From: Bifidobacterium canis
GTDB taxonomy: Bacteria; Actinomycetota; Actinomycetes; Actinomycetales; Bifidobacteriaceae
Reading direction: 5' to 3'
NCBI RefSeq assembly: GCF_009727065.1
Contig: NZ_WNLP01000010.1
Coordinates: forward strand, 69,770-93,769
DNA: 24,000 nucleotides
A program made the translations under genes and the position numbers. This document shows positions 3,189-11,910 of this stretch, piece by piece. How positions within the stretch are numbered: the stretch's first letter is position 1; every line of letters begins with the position of its first letter. The notes under the pieces are model-generated. The model worked only from the letters and a program-made list of their open reading frames with translations. It searched no databases and was not told the origin of the DNA.

Positions 3189-4893
3189 TCACATTTCGGC
3201 GCTCGCGTTGCCGTCCGGTGTGGACGGTTGCGCCGGTTGCGCCGGTTGCGCGGGTTGTGTGGGTTGGGTTGGTTGTGCGGGCGTGTACTGGGGTGTGTAC
3301 TGCGGCGTGTACTGGGGTGTGGCGGGCGCCGTGTACTGCGGGCCCGTCTCCTGCGTTTGCGTTTGCGCCTCGGCCTGACGGGCCTCCTCCTGCCGGCGTC
3401 GCTCCTCCTGGGCTTTCTGTTTCGCCTCCGCCTCCTTTTTCTTGCGTTCCTCCTCCTGTTTTTCCTCTCCGCCTCCTGTTTGGCACGATTGGCGGCGTCC
3501 TCCTGTTGCGCCTTGGCGCGCAACCCACGCAACGTGTCCTGACGGGACTGCAACGCGTCCAACGTGCCCACCGGCAACCCCTCATACGCTTTGAGTGCCG
3601 ACAACGTATCCTTGCCGGCCAACGGCCAATCCTTGACGGCCCGCGCGGCTTGCGTGCGCATCGCCTCCCATTGGGTTGCGATCTGCTCACTGATGCGCTT
3701 GTCCAGACTGTTGGTGCGGGACCGCAATCGGCTGGTGTGCGCCTCCGTGTCCGCCGGACAGGTGCGTTCGGGACTGCTGCCCGCGTTCAACCGCAACCGT
3801 TTCGCCCGCGCCACGCTCGCATCCCATTGCGCCAACTGCTGCGCGTATTGCGCGCACTGGGCCTCACGGCGCCGCCCATCCCCCGCGGTTTGGTGCGCGT
3901 GCAGCGCGAACACCAGGGCCGCCACCATGAGGATCGCCACGAACACGGCTGCGGCGATGATCAACGGCCGGTATGACCGGGCGCGGCCACCCCCATCATC
4001 ATCGTCCGCGCAAGCGGCCACATCCACCGCATCGGCACCGGCAACCCCCGTATCCCCTATAGGGTCCGTGGATTCCCCATTATCCTCGTCATCGTCCCAG
4101 TCAAGGTCCAGGCTGACGCCACGCGAACCGATCTGCGCGATCCAATCATCATCATCCGCCGCTTTGTCAGGCAAGGGCATGCCCCCGTCCGTGGCCGGCT
4201 CACACGGGTGCTCTGGCATGGCGGAGACTGGTGCGGCGGCCACACCGTCCGTGGTGGTTGTTGGGGGCTCGTCCCATGGGGTGGCGTCGGGACCGGCGAT
4301 GTCATCATCCGCCAACCCATCCCCCGTATGGCGCCCGTATCATCCACAAGTCCACCGTCCGCACCCCAATCCCACTGATCCGCGTCCTGCCCATCCGGCG
4401 TAACTGGCGTGGGGTGTGTATCAGCCCCGGCCTCGTCGGCTTGTTCCCCAGTGGCCTGCACGTCCTGCGGGGGCATGCCGGAATCCTGTTCGTCTTGCAC
4501 TGGGGTGTCCCACAACGCATCCCAATCCTCATCATCCACCGCGGTCCCGCCGTCGCCCATGTCAGGGACCTGCACGGGCCCATCCCGGTCCACCGGCTGT
4601 GCCGGCACCGGCGCCTCACTCGGTTCGGGTTGTCCCGCCGGGGCCATGGCCGGTTCCGGATCGGTCCACAGGCTCTCCCAATCATCCCCATCCGGATTGG
4701 ACGGTTCAACCGGCCCGGTGGCATGGCCATCGCCGCCCGGTGCTCCCATGGATGCGGCCTCGGGTGCGGTATGCCCCTCGCCCGCATTGCCCGCCGGGCG
4801 CACCTCACCTTTTGGCATGACGGGTGCGGCCGGTGTGGGTTCACTGGACACCGGGGGTGTGGCCGCGGACTCGAACTTCGGTTTGAATGGCAT
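3189..4893 (-). CDS. Acidic Trp-rich / single-TM / coiled-coil / Q-P-T-Y repeat protein, function unknown; two apparent one-base frame breaks (pseudogene or sequence error)
   Basis: ATG at 4893, with AGGGG 7 nt upstream. Three frame segments: 4893..~4323 (start of track ORF 4057..4893); ~4322..~3461 (track ORF 2990..4315); ~3461..3189 (no start codon, so absent from the track). Hand translation of the third segment: KQEEERKKKEAEAKQKAQEERRRQEEARQAEAQTQTQETGPQYTAPATPQYTPQYTPQYTPAQPTQPTQPAQPAQPAQPSTPDGNASAEM*. The breaks coincide with C5 (4321-4325) and T5 (3459-3463). The corrected stop sits just before the 3150-3180 hairpin. The uncorrected frames instead give Arg-rich or Pro-rich junk, and one reads through the hairpin into dnaN antisense. 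TM segment: YRPLIIAAAVFVAILMVAALVFAL. Confidence 0.55.
3226..3342. repeat. In-frame coding tandem repeats (9 bp x6 degenerate, then 12 bp units)
   Basis: GGTTGCGCC-type 9-mers at 3226, 3235, 3244, 3253, 3262 and 3271 encode P-A/T-Q triplets on the minus strand. GTGTACTG(G/C)GG(T/C) 12-mers at 3283, 3295 and 3307, plus a fourth at 3331 after a 12 bp spacer, encode PQYT units. Confidence 0.8.
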
Positions 4894-5029
4894 GCCACAC
4901 CCCTATGCGACCACACCCAACCGAAAACAATACCCACTGAAAACACCTCGACACCACGGGAATTACCCGACTCCCCTCCCCACGCCCGGTCCGCCGGCCG
5001 TGTTCACGCCTGCACCGGCCACAGGGGAC

Positions 5030-5350
5030 TCTTCACTGACGCAGTGATGTCGGTGAAGACTCCTCAACCCTACTGCCGATTGGGGTTGGGGGCTCCGAAA
5101 ACATGTTTCTTCACCGACGCAGCGTGGTTCTAAAGGAACCCCCAAATCGGCTCCCCTATAGAAAGACCTTAAAAGTCGGTGCGTCACCGAAGAAACTTCA
5201 TAAACCCCAATCAGCAGTAGGCTTAGGAGCCTTCACCGACATTCGAAAGTCGGTGAAGAAAGTTGGGTGTCTTCACCGACATCACCCGCGCGGTCGGTGA
5301 AGAAACCTGCATGTCGGTGAAGAAACATGGAATGTCACTGCGTCGCCGAC
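5030..5350. repeat. Iteron-like array of GTCGGTGAAGA(AAC) / TCTTCACCGAC motifs; putative replication origin or operator region
   Basis: Forward copies at 5049-5059, 5249-5259, 5293-5306 and 5313-5326. Reverse copies at 5030-5040 (1 mismatch), 5108-5118, 5230-5240 (1 mismatch) and 5270-5280. Degenerate composite copies at 5175-5196 and 5334-5350. Three inverted pairs have 8, 8 and 12 bp spacers, and two direct copies sit 20 bp apart. A separate 19 bp inverted repeat, CCTACTGCCGATTGGGGTT (5069-5087) / AACCCCAATCAGCAGTAGG (5203-5221), has 1 mismatch. An A/T-rich patch lies at ~5357-5420. The array sits between divergent genes, directly upstream of the helicase/Prim-Pol gene. Confidence 0.6.
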
Positions 5351-5524
5351 CACACCGGAAAACAAAAAGAAACATATTGCGCATCGCATTGTTTTCGGCG
5401 TGGCTACGGAAATAAACCATCCTCCCCCGCTTTGGGGCGGTTGGGGTGGCCGGGGTGGTGGTCCTTGTGACGCATAGGGGGTACCGCAAGACGCGACACC
5501 GTAGGATGCGGGGAGGATGAGCAC

Positions 5525-8014
5525 ATGTGCACCTACCAAGAGGAACAGGACATGCAACGCTGGAGGTTCCGCGTACGCCCCGGCATGCCACGCAACGTGC
5601 AGAAGATCTACAACGAAATGAGCATCGTCGACTACGACGCCGGCGAATGGACCTTCATCGACGACCACAACGACCCGGTGCGCGTACCCACCCGCAACGA
5701 CGGCAAACCCTACTTCGCCATCGGCTACGCGCGCGCCCTATGGGACTTGCGCAACCGCAACCTCGCCTTGGAACTGCAACCGGACGATGCCGGCACCGTC
5801 CTGTTCCGCCGTGACATCGACACCGAAACGGACGAGAACGGACAGGTGCGCCGGTTGCACACATGGCACGCGATCTCCGCCATCGCGGACGAGTACCGGG
5901 TGCCACGGGCGGAACGCAACAACGAGTGGGAGAACCTGTTCATCCAGGAATGCCGGCGGCTGAAAACACGCGACGGGCACCCATGGCGCGTCGTGCACGG
6001 CATCCGTTTCGACGACCGCGCCTACTGGCGTGAGGACGACGGCAAAGGCCACCAGCACCTGCATGAGATCCTCGACCCGGACGACCCGTTGATGCAAATG
6101 CCCTTCGAACTCAACCTCGAACACGCATGGGATGACCATCTCGCCGACGTGGGCGCACGCATCATCGACGATCTGACCGCGGACGCGAACAGCCGGCACA
6201 ACATGATGCTGCTGCCCGCCAGCCCGTTCCTGCAACCCTACAAGCATCTGACGTTCGTCCTGGCCGGTGACGGCGGCAACGGCAAAGGCCTGTTTTTCAG
6301 CGCGTTCACGAAACACAACCGGCAGACCCAACGCCTGTCCGCCACCATCGACACGGAGAAACTCGTCGGCGGCGGCCGCCTGTCGGGCACATCGGTCGAA
6401 CAGGAACCGGTCAAACTCGTGGGCAAACTGTGGGCGTTCGATGAGGACGCCAGCGGATTGGACACCCACCAGACGGACCGGTTGAAACGCCTGTCCACCG
6501 GCGACACGATCTCGGGGCGTGTGCTGGGCTCGGACGTGATCAGCTTCAACCCGCGTGCCGTGTTGTGCATCGCCACGAACCTTGATTTCGTGACGAACAT
6601 GGACGCGAGCATGAAACGCCGCTTCGCGTTCATCCGCATGAAGGACAACCGCAGCGCCGACAGTCCCGAAATGGTGTACCTGCGTACGTTCGTCGCCACG
6701 GTGGGCGCCTGGGGGTTCATCATGGCGTCCTGCCGCTATTGGCAGCAGCATCCGGCCGGCAAGGCGTTGACCGTGCAGATCGGCCGGCCTGAGAACCTGT
6801 CGGAGGCGGAGGAATGGATCGTGGCGGAACTGGTGGAGCGTGGTTTCGCGGACAACACCAGCAACCCGTTCCGCCCCTCCAGCCATGCGACGCATGACAT
6901 TTGCCAGAAGCTGGGGTTGAAGACGGCGAGGCGCCGCAACAAGAGCGTGCTCATGGTCAACATGGACGATGAGGAGGCGCGCGCCAGGTTCCAACCGTAC
7001 GCCGCGTATGTGCGTGACAAGATCGAACAGGACGGGCATGCGGTGCCCCCGGACGCGTTGCGCCGCCAACCGGACAAGCGCAACCCGGACGAGTATGGCT
7101 TCGTATGTGATTACACGCCGGCGGGCGCCGACAAGGTCGCGCGCAACTGGCAGAAGCTCGCGTTGGACCCGGGTGTGGACACCAGTAGGGTGCCGCAGGG
7201 TGTCAATGCGTGGGCGGCGGTCCCTGCCGAGGGGTATGCGGTGTTGGATTTCGACGTGCCGGACGATCCGGGCGCGCAAACCGGGTGGGCTGTGTTGAGC
7301 GATGAGGTCGGCGCGTACGGGTCGATGGCGTTCCCCGCCACGTTCGTGACCCGCACCCCCGGCATGGGCGCGCATGCGTATTACCGGTTGCCCAAGGGTG
7401 TGGTGTTGCGCAACACGGCGCACCCGAAGACGGACCGGTTCCCCGATGGGTTGCCCATTGATGTGCGCACGGCCCGCAAGGGGTATGTCATCGCCCCCGG
7501 CAGCACCATCCGCAAAGGCCAGTATCTGATCGCGGATGCGCATGAGGTCGTGGAGATGAGCGCGGAAATGGTCGCCTGGCTGGATGAGCACGGGTATGTG
7601 GAGCATCCCGAAGCGGACGCGGAAACCGATGTGATGGTGGACTCTGATGGCGTCATCGCCGGTCCCGCGAACACCCCGGCCCCGGCGGGGCGTCGTGGTG
7701 GTGTGGATCCGTTGGGTGGCTTCTACCGTTCACCCCAAACGCAGCCGCGCCCGGAGGGTGGCAACCGTGGGGAGACGATGCGGTTGAATGTGCCGGCGCA
7801 ATCCAAGGGCGCCACGCATGACGCGATCCGGGATTGGTCGTATGGGCTGATCCATCACGCCGCGGAGGAGCGGTTCAGCCAACCGGAGGTGGATGCGTTG
7901 GTGGAACGGATCAAACGCGGTGTGCGTGTTGGCCATGACCGGCATGACACGGCGTTGGTGTTGGCCGGCGCGTTGAAACAGGCGGGGTTGAGCACCCGCG
8001 TGCCGTTGGAGTGA
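5525..8014 (+). CDS. Replication protein: SF3 (P4/D5-type) helicase domain followed by a bifunctional primase-polymerase (Prim-Pol) domain
   Basis: ATG at 5525 lies 7 nt after GGAGGA (5512-5517); an alternative ATG is at 5552. SF3 motifs: Walker A VLAGDGGNGKGLF (6266-6289 encodes GDGGNGKG), Walker B KLWAFDED, motif C VLCIATN, then KRRFAFI. Prim-Pol motifs: YAVLDFDV (7241-7258), PGMGAHAYYRLP and IDVRTARKGYVIAPGS. The 829 aa frame is uninterrupted. Confidence 0.85.
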   Translation: MCTYQEEQDMQRWRFRVRPGMPRNVQKIYNEMSIVDYDAGEWTFIDDHNDPVRVPTRNDGKPYFAIGYARALWDLRNRNLALELQPDDAGTVLFRRDIDTETDENGQVRRLHTWHAISAIADEYRVPRAERNNEWENLFIQECRRLKTRDGHPWRVVHGIRFDDRAYWREDDGKGHQHLHEILDPDDPLMQMPFELNLEHAWDDHLADVGARIIDDLTADANSRHNMMLLPASPFLQPYKHLTFVLAGDGGNGKGLFFSAFTKHNRQTQRLSATIDTEKLVGGGRLSGTSVEQEPVKLVGKLWAFDEDASGLDTHQTDRLKRLSTGDTISGRVLGSDVISFNPRAVLCIATNLDFVTNMDASMKRRFAFIRMKDNRSADSPEMVYLRTFVATVGAWGFIMASCRYWQQHPAGKALTVQIGRPENLSEAEEWIVAELVERGFADNTSNPFRPSSHATHDICQKLGLKTARRRNKSVLMVNMDDEEARARFQPYAAYVRDKIEQDGHAVPPDALRRQPDKRNPDEYGFVCDYTPAGADKVARNWQKLALDPGVDTSRVPQGVNAWAAVPAEGYAVLDFDVPDDPGAQTGWAVLSDEVGAYGSMAFPATFVTRTPGMGAHAYYRLPKGVVLRNTAHPKTDRFPDGLPIDVRTARKGYVIAPGSTIRKGQYLIADAHEVVEMSAEMVAWLDEHGYVEHPEADAETDVMVDSDGVIAGPANTPAPAGRRGGVDPLGGFYRSPQTQPRPEGGNRGETMRLNVPAQSKGATHDAIRDWSYGLIHHAAEERFSQPEVDALVERIKRGVRVGHDRHDTALVLAGALKQAGLSTRVPLE

Positions 8015-8035
8015 ACAGGTTGAGGGAGGTTGGCA

Positions 8036-8314
8036 ATGGTGCAGGGTGAACCGATCGACCCGGTGGTGTGGGACGTGTGGTGTGCCGTCGTGGAGTACGA
8101 GACGGGGGCGCGCCACGGGTTCACGGCCCGTGTCGCCCGGTTGGATGCGTGGGGTGTGGTGGAGGCCAACGCCCGTTCGTTGCAGTTGGCGTTGGCGGTC
8201 TACCGGTGGCTGTTGGCCCGGTTCGCGATGACCGCACCCGACCGTGTCGCCGGGTGGCGCCAGCGCGTGCTGGAGTGCGAGGGCGCGCTACGGTTCCAAA
8301 CCATGGACGCGTGA
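8036..8314 (+). CDS. Hypothetical small protein (92 aa)
   Basis: ATG at 8036 lies 6 nt after GAGGGAGG (8022-8029) and 22 nt after the upstream stop. Third-position G/C bias looks coding. I recognised no motif. Confidence 0.5.
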   Translation: MVQGEPIDPVVWDVWCAVVEYETGARHGFTARVARLDAWGVVEANARSLQLALAVYRWLLARFAMTAPDRVAGWRQRVLECEGALRFQTMDA

Positions 8315-8347
8315 ACCGTGCGGGTTCAACCCCCGCCCGGTTTCCGG

Positions 8348-9589
8348 TCAGGTGTTCAGGAACAGTGCGCGCCCCATGTCCGACAGCGAGTAGCGGATGG
8401 GTTTGGAACCATGCGTTTGCAGCAATCCGGCATCCGTCAGCGCGTCGAGCGCGTTCACGGTCTTGCGTTCGCCTATGTCCAACGCCTCCCGAAGGAGCTT
8501 GCGGGTCACGGGCACGCGCATCCCGTCGAACAGCTCCTCCTGGATCAGGAAGAACAGGATGCCCGCTTGCAGTCCGGGCATCCCCTCTTGTTGGCGGTAT
8601 GACGTCAACGCGGTTTCCGCTGCCGACAACAGGGCTTGTTTCTCCGTCAATTGCGCGATGATGGCCTCCTGCGCTTCGGACACAAACCGGACCATGCGTT
8701 GGCAGAACATGGTCACGTCCGAGCAGTTCAACGGATGCTGGGCGTCATCGAATGCCTTGTAATACTGTGTCTTGTGGTCGGCGATGATGGTGCTGACGCT
8801 GAGCGCCGTCGGTGCGGATAGGTGCTTGCTTAGTTGCAGTGCGAACAGGAACCGTCCCGTCCTGCCGTTGCCGTCGTAGAACGGGTGGATGTGCTCGAAG
8901 GCATAATGGCACATGGCGGCCCTGAGCAATGGCGGGATGTCCCGGTCTCGCATCAAGGCCAGCCATTGCGTCAACTGCACTTGGATGGTGGATTCGGGCC
9001 AGGCCCCATCATGCAGTTTGCGTCCGGTGCTCTCATCCCAGACCGCGATGGTGTCCTTGCGGAACAGTTGCCCGTCGGGGGTGTCCTTGTCCTCCAGTTC
9101 CCCGTCCATGACCTGATCGTATATGCGGCGGATGCCCTCAAGGGTGGAAGGCAGTTCCAACCGTTCGGGACCGGGGTCGGACAGGCCGAGGAACAGCTTG
9201 GCGAATTCACTCCAACGTGTATGCCCGCCATTGGTGCTGGCGGCCTGCAACGCCTCGCTGATCTCCTTGCGTGTGGTATGCACACCTTCGATGGTGTTCG
9301 TGCTTTGCACTTCGGTGCCGATGAGGTCCATGAGGTATGCGTGGCACGCGATGGGCGGCAGGCTGCGCCACAGCGACTCCACCTGATTTTCCAAGTCGCG
9401 TACCTTATCCATATCGCGGCCGAGTTGCGCGGACAATATAGCGAACATTTCGTATCCGTCCAGCACAAGCCCTGAACGGTATGTGGACCAGCCGTTGATC
9501 CGTGTATCGTATTCCTGTTGCGCGGCTTGTTTTGGGGGAATGGTCGCGGAGCCCATGGCAACGGTTTGCCGGATGGTCTTGTACCCCAT
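8348..9589 (-). CDS. Fic family protein (class II, N-terminal inhibitory helix; probable AMPylase-type enzyme)
   Basis: Fic motif HPFYDGNGRTGR is encoded at 8887..8852. An inhibitory (S/T)xxxE(G/N) motif is present as TNTIEG in the N-terminal part. The preferred start is ATG 9589, 7 nt after GAGGAG (9602..9597); the track start at 9604 overlaps that RBS. Confidence 0.85.
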   Translation of the reverse strand: MGYKTIRQTVAMGSATIPPKQAAQQEYDTRINGWSTYRSGLVLDGYEMFAILSAQLGRDMDKVRDLENQVESLWRSLPPIACHAYLMDLIGTEVQSTNTIEGVHTTRKEISEALQAASTNGGHTRWSEFAKLFLGLSDPGPERLELPSTLEGIRRIYDQVMDGELEDKDTPDGQLFRKDTIAVWDESTGRKLHDGAWPESTIQVQLTQWLALMRDRDIPPLLRAAMCHYAFEHIHPFYDGNGRTGRFLFALQLSKHLSAPTALSVSTIIADHKTQYYKAFDDAQHPLNCSDVTMFCQRMVRFVSEAQEAIIAQLTEKQALLSAAETALTSYRQQEGMPGLQAGILFFLIQEELFDGMRVPVTRKLLREALDIGERKTVNALDALTDAGLLQTHGSKPIRYSLSDMGRALFLNT

Positions 9590-10767: not shown

Positions 10768-11165
10768 CTATGCGTCCCGACCGGGCACACGGACCGTTTC
10801 CGGCATGAACTGCTCGCACATCGTCACCCGCCGGCCCTGCACGAACGCCGACTCCAACGTGCGCCCGTCGAAAATGGCGACATACCCCTCCGCGTACGGG
10901 ATCCTGTCACCGGGGCAGAACGCGCCGATGCTGCGCGCCAACGACACCGCTCCCGCCGCATCCCCCCGGGACGCCAACAGGTCAATCCGGTTCTTCGCCT
11001 CCCATCCGGCCGTCTCCCACGCCGGCGCGCCGGATACACGCCGGACGCGGGTTGGCTGGAGGGGGTGGGCGGCATGGGTGGGCGGCCCACATCCCTCATG
11101 GGGTTCGCATCGAACTGTCCACCCGCCCCATTGGGCGCCCCTTTCGGTTTACGCATGACCGGCAT
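10768..11165 (-). CDS. Hypothetical protein, apparently frame-broken
   Basis: The start cluster ATG 11171/11165/11156 follows GAAAGGG (11180..11174). The N-terminal frame reads MPVMRKPKGAPNGAGGQFDANPMRDVGRPPMPPTPSSQPASGVYPA and then turns into Arg-rich junk. The protein-like continuation, PAWETAGWEAKNRIDLLASRGDAAGAVSLARSIGAFCPGDRIPYAEGYVAIFDGRTLESAFVQGRRVTMCEQFMPETVRVPGRDA*, is in the adjacent frame (track ORF 10768..10977, which has no upstream start). The switch lies within the GC palindrome CCGGCGCGCCGG (11022-11033). Confidence 0.4.
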
Positions 11166-11217
11166 GACCATCACCCTTTCACGATTCCATATGACTGTTG
11201 TGGTGTACGCACCCCAC

Positions 11218-11910
11218 CTATGCGCCGACACCCACCCCATCATCGGGGCCATGCGCCATATCCGCCAAACCATCCGGGATCATCGCCGCCCGTTCGCCGC
11301 GCGGCCAATACGACTCACGCGCCCGCACCAACAACCAAGTCGACAGGCGGCTGGGTACCCGGTCGCTTTTGCGCCTGTTGTGCTTGGCACACAACCACAC
11401 CAGGTTGCGCCGGCTGGTGGCGCCCCCACGGCTCCACGGGTAATGATGGTCCATCTGCTCACCCATGCGCGGACAACGGATCAGACCGCACATGCGGTGC
11501 TCGCACTGGTTGCCGGTGCATTGTGTGATGAACTCCCGGTCCGCGTCCGAGAACAGGCGGCGTGGATCCCTGTCGAACGGGTTGTCCGGTTTGCGCATGG
11601 GCCAACACACCATTATGGCCACCAGTGCAACCACCAGTGCGGCCATCAGGGCCGTCCACAGCCAACCGGCCGGGACATGCGGCATACGCCAAACGGGCCA
11701 GTGCCACCCCGACAACGGGTTGAGGCTGATGTCGGCCGCAAACTCCGGACTGTCCGTTTCCGCCAACAACCGGTCATGCACACGGATGCACACACCGCCC
11801 ACATACCCCATGGTCCCCATGCCGCCGGAACCGGCCACGGCCCACAGAACATGGCGCGCCCACCGGTGCGCGCCCATAAGCCTGCGCGCCAACCGGATAG
11901 GATGCCACAT
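11218..11910 (-). CDS. Membrane-anchored HNH endonuclease
   Basis: ATG at 11910. HNH core: CEHRMCG...MDHHYPWSRGGATSRRNLVWLCAKHNRRKSD. It is preceded by a strongly hydrophobic helix, GWLWTALMAALVVALVAIMVCW, and a weaker one, HVLWAVAGSGGMGTMGYVGGVCI. Confidence 0.8.
   Translation of the reverse strand: MWHPIRLARRLMGAHRWARHVLWAVAGSGGMGTMGYVGGVCIRVHDRLLAETDSPEFAADISLNPLSGWHWPVWRMPHVPAGWLWTALMAALVVALVAIMVCWPMRKPDNPFDRDPRRLFSDADREFITQCTGNQCEHRMCGLIRCPRMGEQMDHHYPWSRGGATSRRNLVWLCAKHNRRKSDRVPSRLSTWLLVRARESYWPRGERAAMIPDGLADMAHGPDDGVGVGA

What the first reader, a model, noticed from the sequence alone, without database searches (positions are those of the whole stretch)
4950..5524. Dense iteron/operator array with nested long inverted repeat next to the replication gene: putative origin
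About 570 bp of non-coding DNA separates the divergent genes. It holds at least eight clear and two degenerate copies of GTCGGTGAAGA(AAC). Three pairs are inverted with 8, 8 and 12 bp spacers, and two copies are direct, 20 bp apart. A 19 bp inverted repeat (5069-5087 / 5203-5221) encloses two of the copies, and an A/T-rich patch (~5357-5420) lies just before the helicase/Prim-Pol gene. Iterons plus an A/T-rich unwinding element beside a rep gene is the classical layout of plasmid or ICE vegetative origins. The palindromic pairs could equally be operators of a dimeric regulator, or an oriT.
Basis: partly seen in the sequence, partly recalled or inferred. Interest (0 to 1): 0.65.

Follow-up and report, generated by a model that had tools for sequence, protein, structure and literature searches.

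The report
Repeated protein-binding module in a Bifidobacterium ICE
The dense 11-base repeat array in front of the replication gene is real, but it is one of eight copies of a ~320-bp module placed at operon heads across a ~120-kb integrated conjugative element, so it looks like a shared control or assembly site rather than one unique replication origin.

Summary
GTCGGTGAAGA occurs 6 times exactly and 2 times with one mismatch in 5030-5323, with the stated spacings and the long inverted repeat.

The array is not unique. Its ~320-bp core (5026-5350) occurs 8 times, at 80-89% identity, in the window's own genome. All copies lie in a high-GC (63%) integrase-bounded conjugative element, and all are intergenic. 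B. cuniculi LMG 10738 carries the same element with 9 copies.

Relatives whose Rep is 58% and 55% identical have the same design with a different repeated word: GTCGCAGCA in 9 dispersed modules, and CACTGAGGTC in 3 tandem clusters. Distant rep loci have one array with their own word, directly upstream of rep.

Cores are homogenised by gene conversion. Stem covariation is absent, so the words behave as protein sites, not as an RNA or ssDNA structure. No sigma-70 consensus promoter and no Rfam family was found.

Best reading (about 0.5): a dispersed operator/assembly module for one element-specific DNA-binding protein, co-controlling rep, a VirB4-like gene, two DNA methyltransferases, a DUF3846 gene and others. 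The closest known thing is EGeRS1 of pLS20.

Main rival (about 0.27): Rep iterons, with this copy as oriV and the others auxiliary.

The earlier scan had noted the element but not this repeat.

The parts
4921..5398 (.). Whole module: ~320-bp conserved core plus two variable arms of fixed length, ending in inverted A/T boxes
   Evidence: 8-copy and 17-copy alignments. Outer 11-nt inverted repeat 4921-31/5388-98 is 100% complementary (I17).
5026..5350 (.). Conserved core, repeated 8 times in the own genome at 80-89% identity
   Evidence: blastn against the own genome. Alignment A1 has mean column identity 89% and almost no indels.
5009..5019 (-). Site S0, degenerate (8 of 11)
   Evidence: Aligned to CTTCAGTGAC/CTTCACCGAC in other copies.
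5030..5040 (-). Site S1 (1 mismatch), long form with the CGCAGTG extension
5049..5059 (+). Site S2, exact; inverted partner of S1 with an 8-bp spacer
5066..5087 (+). Left arm of the long inverted repeat. Its core CTACTGCCGATTGG is invariant in nearly all copies and is also conserved in the G025 lineage.
   Evidence: I2; I4
5108..5118 (-). Site S3, exact, long form
5127..5200 (.). Central block, nearly invariant in 17 copies and partly conserved in the G025 lineage; it holds the invariant 26-mer 5171-5196
5183..5193 (+). Site S4, variant GTCACCGAAGA (central triplet flipped)
5203..5224 (-). Right arm of the long inverted repeat
   Evidence: I2
5230..5240 (-). Site S5 (1 mismatch). Paralogues carry CAGTGAC here without any compensating change in the partner site.
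5249..5259 (+). Site S6, exact
5270..5280 (-). Site S7, exact. Paralogues carry TCTTCGGTGAC here.
5293..5303 (+). Site S8, exact
5313..5323 (+). Site S9, exact; direct repeat of S8, 20 bp on
5334..5350 (+). Site S10, degenerate long form (GTCACTGCGTCGCCGAC)
5357..5420 (.). A/T-richer right arm with A-tract, ATTG and ATTGTTT boxes; box positions are conserved among paralogues
4900..4909 (-). Outward CGCATAGGGG leader/RBS-like box, 7 nt before ATG 4893
   Evidence: I22. The box recurs next to start codons beside other copies.
5471..5480 (+). Outward CGCATAGGGG box on the rep side
   Evidence: (I22)
4057..4893 (-). Divergent gene for an acidic D/E/W-rich protein with no Pfam family
5525..8014 (+). 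rep: DUF5906 SF3-type helicase (aa 246-366) followed by Prim-Pol (aa 544-673)

Best explanation
The array is the rep-proximal member of a family of eight dispersed, concertedly evolving modules. Each has a ~320-bp core and spans ~480 bp with its arms. All belong to a ~120-kb integrated conjugative element of a Bifidobacterium. Each core carries at least ten copies of the word GTC-RSY-GAAGA(AAC), in both orientations, spaced about two helical turns apart. It also carries a conserved box (CTACTGCCGATTGG) and an almost invariant centre. Inferred: the words are double-stranded DNA binding sites for one element-specific protein. That protein is not identified; the helicase/Prim-Pol is a candidate. 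Its cooperative binding would build a large nucleoprotein complex between the operons that start on either side. Because the same module heads many operons, one protein would co-control them. These operons include rep, a VirB4-like transfer ATPase gene, a C5 and an N6 DNA methyltransferase, a DUF3846 gene and an adhesin operon. The most likely mode is silencing in the resident, integrated state and release on induction or on entry into a new cell. This parallels the establishment-gene regulatory sequences of pLS20-family plasmids. The rep-proximal copy may also act as the replication origin. Shown: the repeat family, its positions, its conservation pattern and the change of word between lineages. 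Inferred: protein binding, repression and timing.
For: The module has 8 copies in the own genome, all inside the high-GC element, and only 5 stray 11-mers lie elsewhere. All 8 copies are intergenic, with a gene reading away on at least one side. First genes next to modules include a VirB4-like AAA_10 protein, DUF3846, a C5 methyltransferase, an N6 methyltransferase and rep. The element has a tyrosine integrase at the GC jump, plus T4CP-like, CHAP and glucosaminidase genes. The same 26-mer occurs in only 2 of 236 family genomes, and the second, B. cuniculi LMG 10738, has 9 copies at orthologous places. Spacing is strictly kept and words are conserved, while changes in the central triplet are not compensated in the partner site. 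The RNAalifold covariation term is -0.89, and 12 cells changed on both sides against 8.1 +/- 2 in shuffles. Orthologous flanks are about 99% identical but cores only 85-90%, which indicates homogenisation among paralogues. Related lineages keep the design with another word, 9 modules in G025 and 3 tandem clusters in G037, and partly at the same genes: rep, the VirB4-like gene, the 450-aa protein and the GmrSD_C gene. Published analogue: EGeRS1 and EGeRS2 (PMC8708921).
Against: No binding protein is identified, and Pfam found only a WhiB-type regulator in the element. No sigma-70-like promoter was found in the core or flanks, and the outer A/T boxes differ in orientation between lineages, so outward promoters are inferred, not shown. 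The array is linked to rep in every lineage examined, and in distant relatives it is upstream of rep only, which fits a replication role equally well. Some module neighbours (VirB4-like gene, adhesin) are not establishment genes.
Confidence: 0.5

Rival explanations
1. Replication reading. The 11-mers are iterons of the helicase/Prim-Pol Rep. The window copy is the vegetative origin of the excised element. The other seven copies are additional origins, Rep-loading or priming sites, or copy-control (handcuffing) arrays.
For: An array lies directly upstream of rep in most lineages examined, and the word changes with the Rep lineage. In distant rep loci the array, with an A/T-rich stretch, occurs only at rep, and rep is the only gene shared with this element within the 1.5-kb flanks held for those loci. 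GC dips across the module. The element carries its own clamp-like protein and gp2.5-like SSB. The roughly 20-bp phasing is typical of iterons. From memory, not checked here: the phage P4 alpha primase-helicase binds octamer iterons at two separate loci (ori and crr), and SaPI Rep helicases bind lineage-specific iterons.
Against: Eight to nine dispersed copies of a full origin-like unit on one bacterial element have no precedent. The centre is conserved at sequence level rather than merely A/T-rich. The copies sit at operon heads with shared leader boxes. In the distant loci an HTH protein gene precedes the array and could be the binder instead. No Rep domain stands out as a hypervariable specificity domain.
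Confidence: 0.27
2. Single-stranded-DNA promoter or priming signal (Frpo/ssi type). After conjugative entry the module folds into a long hairpin that drives early transcription or priming.
For: The core folds very strongly as ssDNA on both strands, with z = -9.95 and -8.25. Methyltransferase, DUF3846 and rep genes next to modules resemble leading-region cargo (PMC11541004).
Against: No -35/-10 hexamers lie in the arms. Genes leave the same module on both strands, and modules occur in both orientations, whereas Frpo-driven genes share one strand. Variant sites break stems without compensation.
Confidence: 0.08
3. Recombination-prone or selfish repeat (MITE-like unit, or sites of a site-specific recombinase) with no regulatory or replication role.
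For: Cores are mosaic between orthologues. B. cuniculi has an extra tandem copy and an extra ~2.3 kb between the inverted pair. G037 has tandem amplification. The core is inverted relative to the 450-aa gene between lineages. An outer 11-nt inverted repeat is present.
Against: No target-site duplication is seen (read by eye). There are no copies outside the element. Positions at the same genes are kept across lineages with 55-58% Rep identity. Words and spacing are strongly conserved.
Confidence: 0.08
4. Structured non-coding RNA gene or leader.
For: Strong predicted folding.
Against: No Rfam family matches at E <= 1. There is essentially no covariation. Folding is equally good on both strands.
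Confidence: 0.03

Closest known systems
EGeRS1, establishment gene regulatory sequences of pLS20-family Bacillus plasmids (Val-Calvo et al. 2021, PMC8708921)
   Same: Several copies (62-95% identical there, 80-89% here) of a long region rich in inverted repeats on one Gram-positive conjugative element. Each copy lies just upstream of an operon. ssDNA/RNA folding is predicted to be strong. No sigma-A consensus promoter is present. Copies of one element resemble each other most. The mechanism is unknown.
   Different: Sequence relationship was not tested. The host here is an actinobacterial ICE. This module is built from one 11-mer repeated at least 10 times and flanked by genes on both sides. 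Its GC is lower than its surroundings, whereas EGeRS1 is higher. It also heads rep and a transfer ATPase gene. The repeated word is swapped between lineages.
EGeRS2 with the Reg repressor of p576, and other global operator regulons (KorB sites of RK2 and omega heptads of pSM19035, both from memory)
   Same: One element-encoded protein binds the same short word at several promoters and co-represses establishment or maintenance operons.
   Different: Those operators are one or a few words next to a defined promoter. Here each unit is a 320-bp array with extra conserved boxes, and no regulator gene is identified.
Iteron origins with cognate Rep, e.g. RepB and its 20-mer iterons in the bifidobacterial megaplasmid pMP7017 (PMC8313286); P4 alpha and SaPI helicase iterons (from memory)
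   Same: Arrays of short phased words beside the replication gene, with a word specific to the Rep lineage and partial A/T enrichment.
   Different: There are eight dispersed full copies instead of one origin. Sites are in mixed orientation. The Rep here is a helicase/Prim-Pol, not a RepB-type initiator. Binding is untested.
34-bp promoter motif of pMP7017 (PMC10832533)
   Same: A motif private to a bifidobacterial conjugative element and repeated at 19 promoters, proposed to be a transcription-factor site.
   Different: It is a single 34-bp site overlapping a canonical -10, not a 320-bp multi-site module, and the sequence is unrelated.
Frpo/ssi single-strand promoters of F and ColIb leading regions (PMC11541004)
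   Same: Repeats of about 300 nt that fold as ssDNA and lie upstream of early genes.
   Different: No promoter hexamers lie in the stems here, and the flanking genes are on both strands.

Membership tests
Iteron-type vegetative origin (oriV) | Array of short repeated words next to the rep gene | tested here: met
Iteron-type vegetative origin (oriV) | The word is specific to the Rep lineage | tested here: met
   GTCGGTGAAGA, GTCGCAGCA, CACTGAGGTC, AGCGTAAGGAA and AAGTGTTAG in different Rep lineages.
Iteron-type vegetative origin (oriV) | Adjacent A/T-rich unwinding element | tested here: inconclusive
   GC falls only to 0.53. The centre is conserved in sequence rather than merely A/T-rich.
Iteron-type vegetative origin (oriV) | One cis-acting origin per replicon | tested here: not met
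   8 dispersed full copies here, 9 in B. cuniculi and 9 in G025.
Iteron-type vegetative origin (oriV) | Rep binds the words and the fragment replicates autonomously | not testable with these tools
   Needs EMSA and a replication assay.
EGeRS1-type establishment regulatory sequence | Several similar copies of a long region rich in inverted repeats on one conjugative element | tested here: met
EGeRS1-type establishment regulatory sequence | [quoted passage not shown] | tested here: met
   All 8 copies are intergenic with an outward gene on at least one side, and they share a CGCATAGGGG-N7-ATG leader.
EGeRS1-type establishment regulatory sequence | Downstream genes are establishment or anti-restriction genes | tested here: inconclusive
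   C5 and N6 methyltransferases, DUF3846 and rep fit. The VirB4-like gene and the adhesin operon do not.
EGeRS1-type establishment regulatory sequence | No constitutive sigma-A promoter inside | tested here: inconclusive
   No consensus match in silico.
EGeRS1-type establishment regulatory sequence | Sequence homology to EGeRS1 of pLS20 | not tested
   No EGeRS1 sequence was compared. The plasmid DNA search with window 4000-9000 found nothing.
Frpo/ssi single-strand promoter | Long stable hairpin in ssDNA | tested here: met
   z = -9.95 and -8.25.
Frpo/ssi single-strand promoter | -35 and -10 hexamers rebuilt in the stem | tested here: not met
Frpo/ssi single-strand promoter | All driven genes are templated by one (the transferred) strand | tested here: not met
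   Genes leave modules on both strands, and modules occur in both orientations.
MITE-like mobile repeat | Target-site duplications and copies scattered through the genome | tested here: not met
   No duplication is seen at module ends, and copies occur only inside the element.
Structured non-coding RNA | Compensatory base changes that keep the stems | tested here: not met
   Covariation term -0.89. Variant triplets break 6-7 of 17 pairs. No Rfam hit.
oriT | Single site next to a relaxase gene, with a nick site | tested here: inconclusive
   Eight copies argue against it. No relaxase family was found among the proteins scanned. A nick site cannot be tested.

The most novel reading that the evidence does not exclude
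The modules are multiple loading or priming sites for the element's own helicase/Prim-Pol. On this reading a bacterial conjugative element would replicate, or convert its incoming single strand, from eight or so dispersed lineage-specific origins, each coupled to divergent promoters. This would be a multi-origin, phage-T4/T7-like or archaeal-like strategy in an ICE.
Probability: 0.2. Interest if true: 0.85.

Novelty: new variant of a known kind. Interest (0 to 1): 0.58.

Why it matters
Conjugative elements of bifidobacteria are poorly understood. The one well-studied case, pMP7017, uses different replication and promoter motifs. Here a whole ICE family carries a large, multi-site DNA module at the heads of its replication, transfer and DNA-methylation operons. 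The binding word is swapped between lineages while the architecture is kept. That points to a single master DNA-binding protein, or the Rep itself, organising the element. It offers a clean system for studying how cis sites and their protein co-evolve by concerted evolution. It is also an actinobacterial counterpart to the still unexplained EGeRS1 regions of Bacillus plasmids. Practically, the eight arrays predict eight ChIP peaks and a regulon that can be tested directly.

Tried and rejected
- Rfam scan of 4700-5700: no match at E <= 1.
- Sigma-70 promoter and terminator scan: none. A relaxed TTGnnn-N16-19-nAnnnT scan over 17 copies gave only one weak conserved candidate at 5079, scoring 5-7 of 12.
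- RNA/ssDNA structure: strong folding but no covariation.
- DNA search of window 4000-9000 against plasmids found nothing, and against phages only a 162-bp chance-level hit. A Rep protein search against plasmids found only Prim-Pol domains of Pseudonocardia plasmids.
- pMP7017 relationship: rejected. It has different replicases, iterons and promoter motif.
- The HTH protein that precedes the array in distant rep loci has no homologue in this genome.
- Rep against PDB sequences: no hit.
- A hypervariable specificity domain in Rep: not evident.
- The outer A/T boxes as directional -10 or -35 elements: rejected, because their orientation differs between lineages.
- The invariant 26-mer is absent from viral contigs.
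- My early impression that the module's left side always faces an outward gene (8 of 8) is not a fixed rule. The core is inverted relative to the 450-aa gene in the G025 lineage.

Full report
**1. The observation**

The region reads as described. GTCGGTGAAGA has six exact and two one-mismatch copies, all between 5030 and 5323. At up to two mismatches the window holds 21 matches against 5.9 +/- 2.6 in shuffles.

The three inverted pairs (spacers 8, 8 and 12 bp), the direct pair 20 bp apart and the long inverted repeat (5066-5087/5203-5224, 22 nt, 91%) are all present.

I add a variant site GTCACCGAAGA at 5183-93 and degenerate sites at 5009-19 and 5334-50. Across all copies the word generalises to GTC-RSY-GAAGA(AAC), with a longer form CRCTGCGTCGGTGAAGAAA. 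Site centres are 19-23 bp apart in the two arrays. GC falls to 0.53 here against about 0.65 in the flanks.

**2. The array is a dispersed repeat**

A search of the window's own genome found 54 exact 11-mers. Of these, 49 lie in eight clusters. blastn shows that the whole ~320-bp array is repeated eight times at 80-89% identity:
- six copies on the 94-kb contig C2 that holds the window;
- two copies in the last 16 kb of contig C1.

C2 has 63% GC against about 57% for the rest of the genome. C1 jumps to 64% GC at about 545 kb, where a tyrosine integrase gene sits. The end of C1 matches the end of C2 in reverse.

The element also encodes:
- a VirB4-like AAA_10 ATPase, an FtsK/T4CP-like protein, and CHAP and glucosaminidase wall hydrolases;
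- a WhiB regulator and an SNF2 helicase;
- several DNA methyltransferases;
- a clamp-like protein and a gp2.5-like SSB;
- sortase/pilin sets.

It is therefore an integrated conjugative-type element of at least about 120 kb.

**3. Anatomy and context of the copies**

Alignments of the 8 copies and then of 17 copies show a core (window 5026-5350) with almost no indels. The words, the box CTACTGCCGATTGG and the centre 5127-5200 are nearly invariant. One 26-mer (5171-5196) is identical in 16 of 17 copies.

On each side a variable arm of roughly fixed length ends in A/T boxes. In the window these form a perfect 11-nt inverted repeat, 4921-31/5388-98. Further out, an outward CGCATAGGGG box lies about 7 nt before start codons beside many copies.

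Every copy is intergenic. First genes beside modules include:
- rep;
- the VirB4-like ATPase gene;
- a DUF3846 protein gene;
- a C5 methyltransferase and an N6 methyltransferase gene;
- a small membrane protein gene;
- the head of an AgI/II adhesin operon;
- several genes of unknown function.

**4. Relatives**

The invariant 26-mer occurs in only one other of 236 genomes of the family. That genome has nine copies and is B. cuniculi LMG 10738. The copies lie at orthologous places, because the flanks are about 99% identical. The cores of several orthologous pairs differ by 10-15% and are mosaics of other paralogues. This indicates gene conversion among modules, that is, concerted evolution.

Rep homologues occur in 29 of 236 genomes:
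- **G025 (Rep 58% identical; the B. animalis MCC 0483 protein found is 57%).** The rep-upstream region has the same architecture, including the CTTACTGCCGATTGGGG box and a related centre. The repeated word is GTCGCAGCA, and the ~300-bp module again occurs nine times, dispersed, at 86-92% identity. Some modules sit beside homologues of the same genes as here: rep, the VirB4-like gene, a 450-aa protein and a GmrSD_C gene.
- **G037 (B. castoris; Rep 55% by tblastn, 52% for the catalogued protein).** The word is CACTGAGGTC, in three loci spread over 80 kb. Each locus holds several tandem ~430-bp units, and one locus is rep-proximal.
- **Distant loci (Rep 35-40%).** An array of a further word (AGCGTAAGGAA, AAGTGTTAG), with an A/T-rich stretch, lies only upstream of rep. 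The last words overlap a plausible rep promoter. Rep is the only gene shared with this element within the 1.5-kb flanks held. There a Q/P-rich protein with a C-terminal HTH precedes the array; it has no homologue here.

**5. What kind of thing it is**

The core folds very strongly as a single strand on either strand (z about -10 and -8), but this follows from the inverted words alone. RNAalifold gives a covariation term of only -0.89.

A direct test of the three local hairpins gives 12 doubly changed cells against 8.1 +/- 2.0 in shuffles. The variant central triplets (ACC, AGT, GGT) break 6-7 of 17 pairs without compensation.

The words therefore behave as sequence motifs with fixed spacing, which is the signature of protein sites on duplex DNA. 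There is no Rfam family and no sigma-70 consensus promoter. The outer A/T boxes change orientation between lineages, so they are probably A/T tracts rather than directional promoter hexamers.

No target-site duplications are visible, and no copy lies outside the element. That argues against a MITE.

**6. Mechanism**

Two facts pull in different directions. The tie to rep and the lineage-specific word are classic iteron features. Eight or nine full copies at the heads of unrelated operons, with shared leaders and concerted evolution, are features of a regulon control region.

The closest published thing is EGeRS1 of pLS20-family plasmids. These are conserved 400-600-bp regions rich in inverted repeats, lying upstream of five establishment operons. 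They have no constitutive promoter, they block read-through, and their mechanism is unknown. The sister type EGeRS2 is a promoter flanked by repeated operator words of the Reg repressor (PMC8708921). In bifidobacteria, pMP7017 has a private 34-bp motif at 19 promoters (PMC10832533).

I therefore rank the explanations as follows:
- **First (0.5).** A dispersed operator/assembly module for one element-specific protein that co-controls these operons. The rep-proximal copy may double as the origin.
- **Second (0.27).** Rep iterons, with one origin plus auxiliary origin, priming or handcuffing arrays.
- **Third (0.08 each).** The ssDNA-promoter reading fails on promoter hexamers and on strand consistency. 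The selfish or recombination-site reading fails on position conservation.
- **Last (0.03).** A structured RNA.

**7. Limits**

No binding protein is identified. Promoters are inferred only from gene positions and shared leaders.

The P4 and SaPI iteron comparisons, and the link between DUF3846 and ArdA, rest on my memory and were not checked here.

**8. Verdict**

The origin interpretation is partly right in kind (cognate sites tied to rep) but wrong in uniqueness.

The finding is a new variant of a known kind: multi-copy regulatory or iteron regions of conjugative elements. It has an unusual, testable feature, the swap of the binding word between lineages on a conserved 320-bp scaffold.

The earlier scan notes covered the element and its genes but not this repeat family.

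Noticed in passing
window 4900-4909 and 5471-5480; also beside the other seven copies (G000 C1/C2): An outward-facing box, CGCATAGGGG, followed about 7 nt later by ATG recurs at the starts of many module-flanking genes on both sides. It looks like a shared leader or ribosome-binding context that was copied with the module.
   Followed up: partly
G000 C1:545062-546390 and the end of C1 against the end of C2: A tyrosine integrase gene sits exactly at the GC jump (57% to 64%). The last 40 bases of C1 recur reversed about 220 bp from the end of C2. The element therefore runs from the C1 tail into C2 reversed, and the gene order in B. cuniculi agrees.
   Followed up: partly
G000 C2:34379-35241 against B. 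cuniculi Contig10 (G045 C10:135k-138k): Two modules lie tail to tail about 220 bp apart in this genome. In B. cuniculi about 2.3 kb of extra DNA lies between the same two modules, and the divergence starts at the same site (about S7) in both. B. cuniculi also has an extra tandem module at C1:573.4k.
   Followed up: partly
G000 C2:59980-61926 (outside the window): An N6 DNA methyltransferase gene lies in a low-GC (53%) pocket directly beside the 62k module. It is probably a later cargo insertion.
   Followed up: partly
window 5525-8014: The Rep protein has the SF3/DUF5906 helicase before the Prim-Pol domain. It has no sequence-level relative in the PDB. Homologues occur in 29 of 236 genomes of the family.
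   Followed up: partly
L040, L041, L043 (rep loci of G172, G112, G115): Small rep loci share the layout Q/P-rich protein with C-terminal HTH, then a ~250-bp iteron array with an A/T-rich stretch, then the helicase/Prim-Pol gene. They also share a conserved leader ending CCCAATGG at the start codon. This is probably the ancestral single-origin form.
   Followed up: partly
window about 10824-11273 region and G000 C2:62852-64204: Two paralogous proteins in the element begin with a similar N-terminus (RKPKGAPN.AGGQ). One of them is the first gene beside a module, both here and in the G025 lineage.
   Followed up: no
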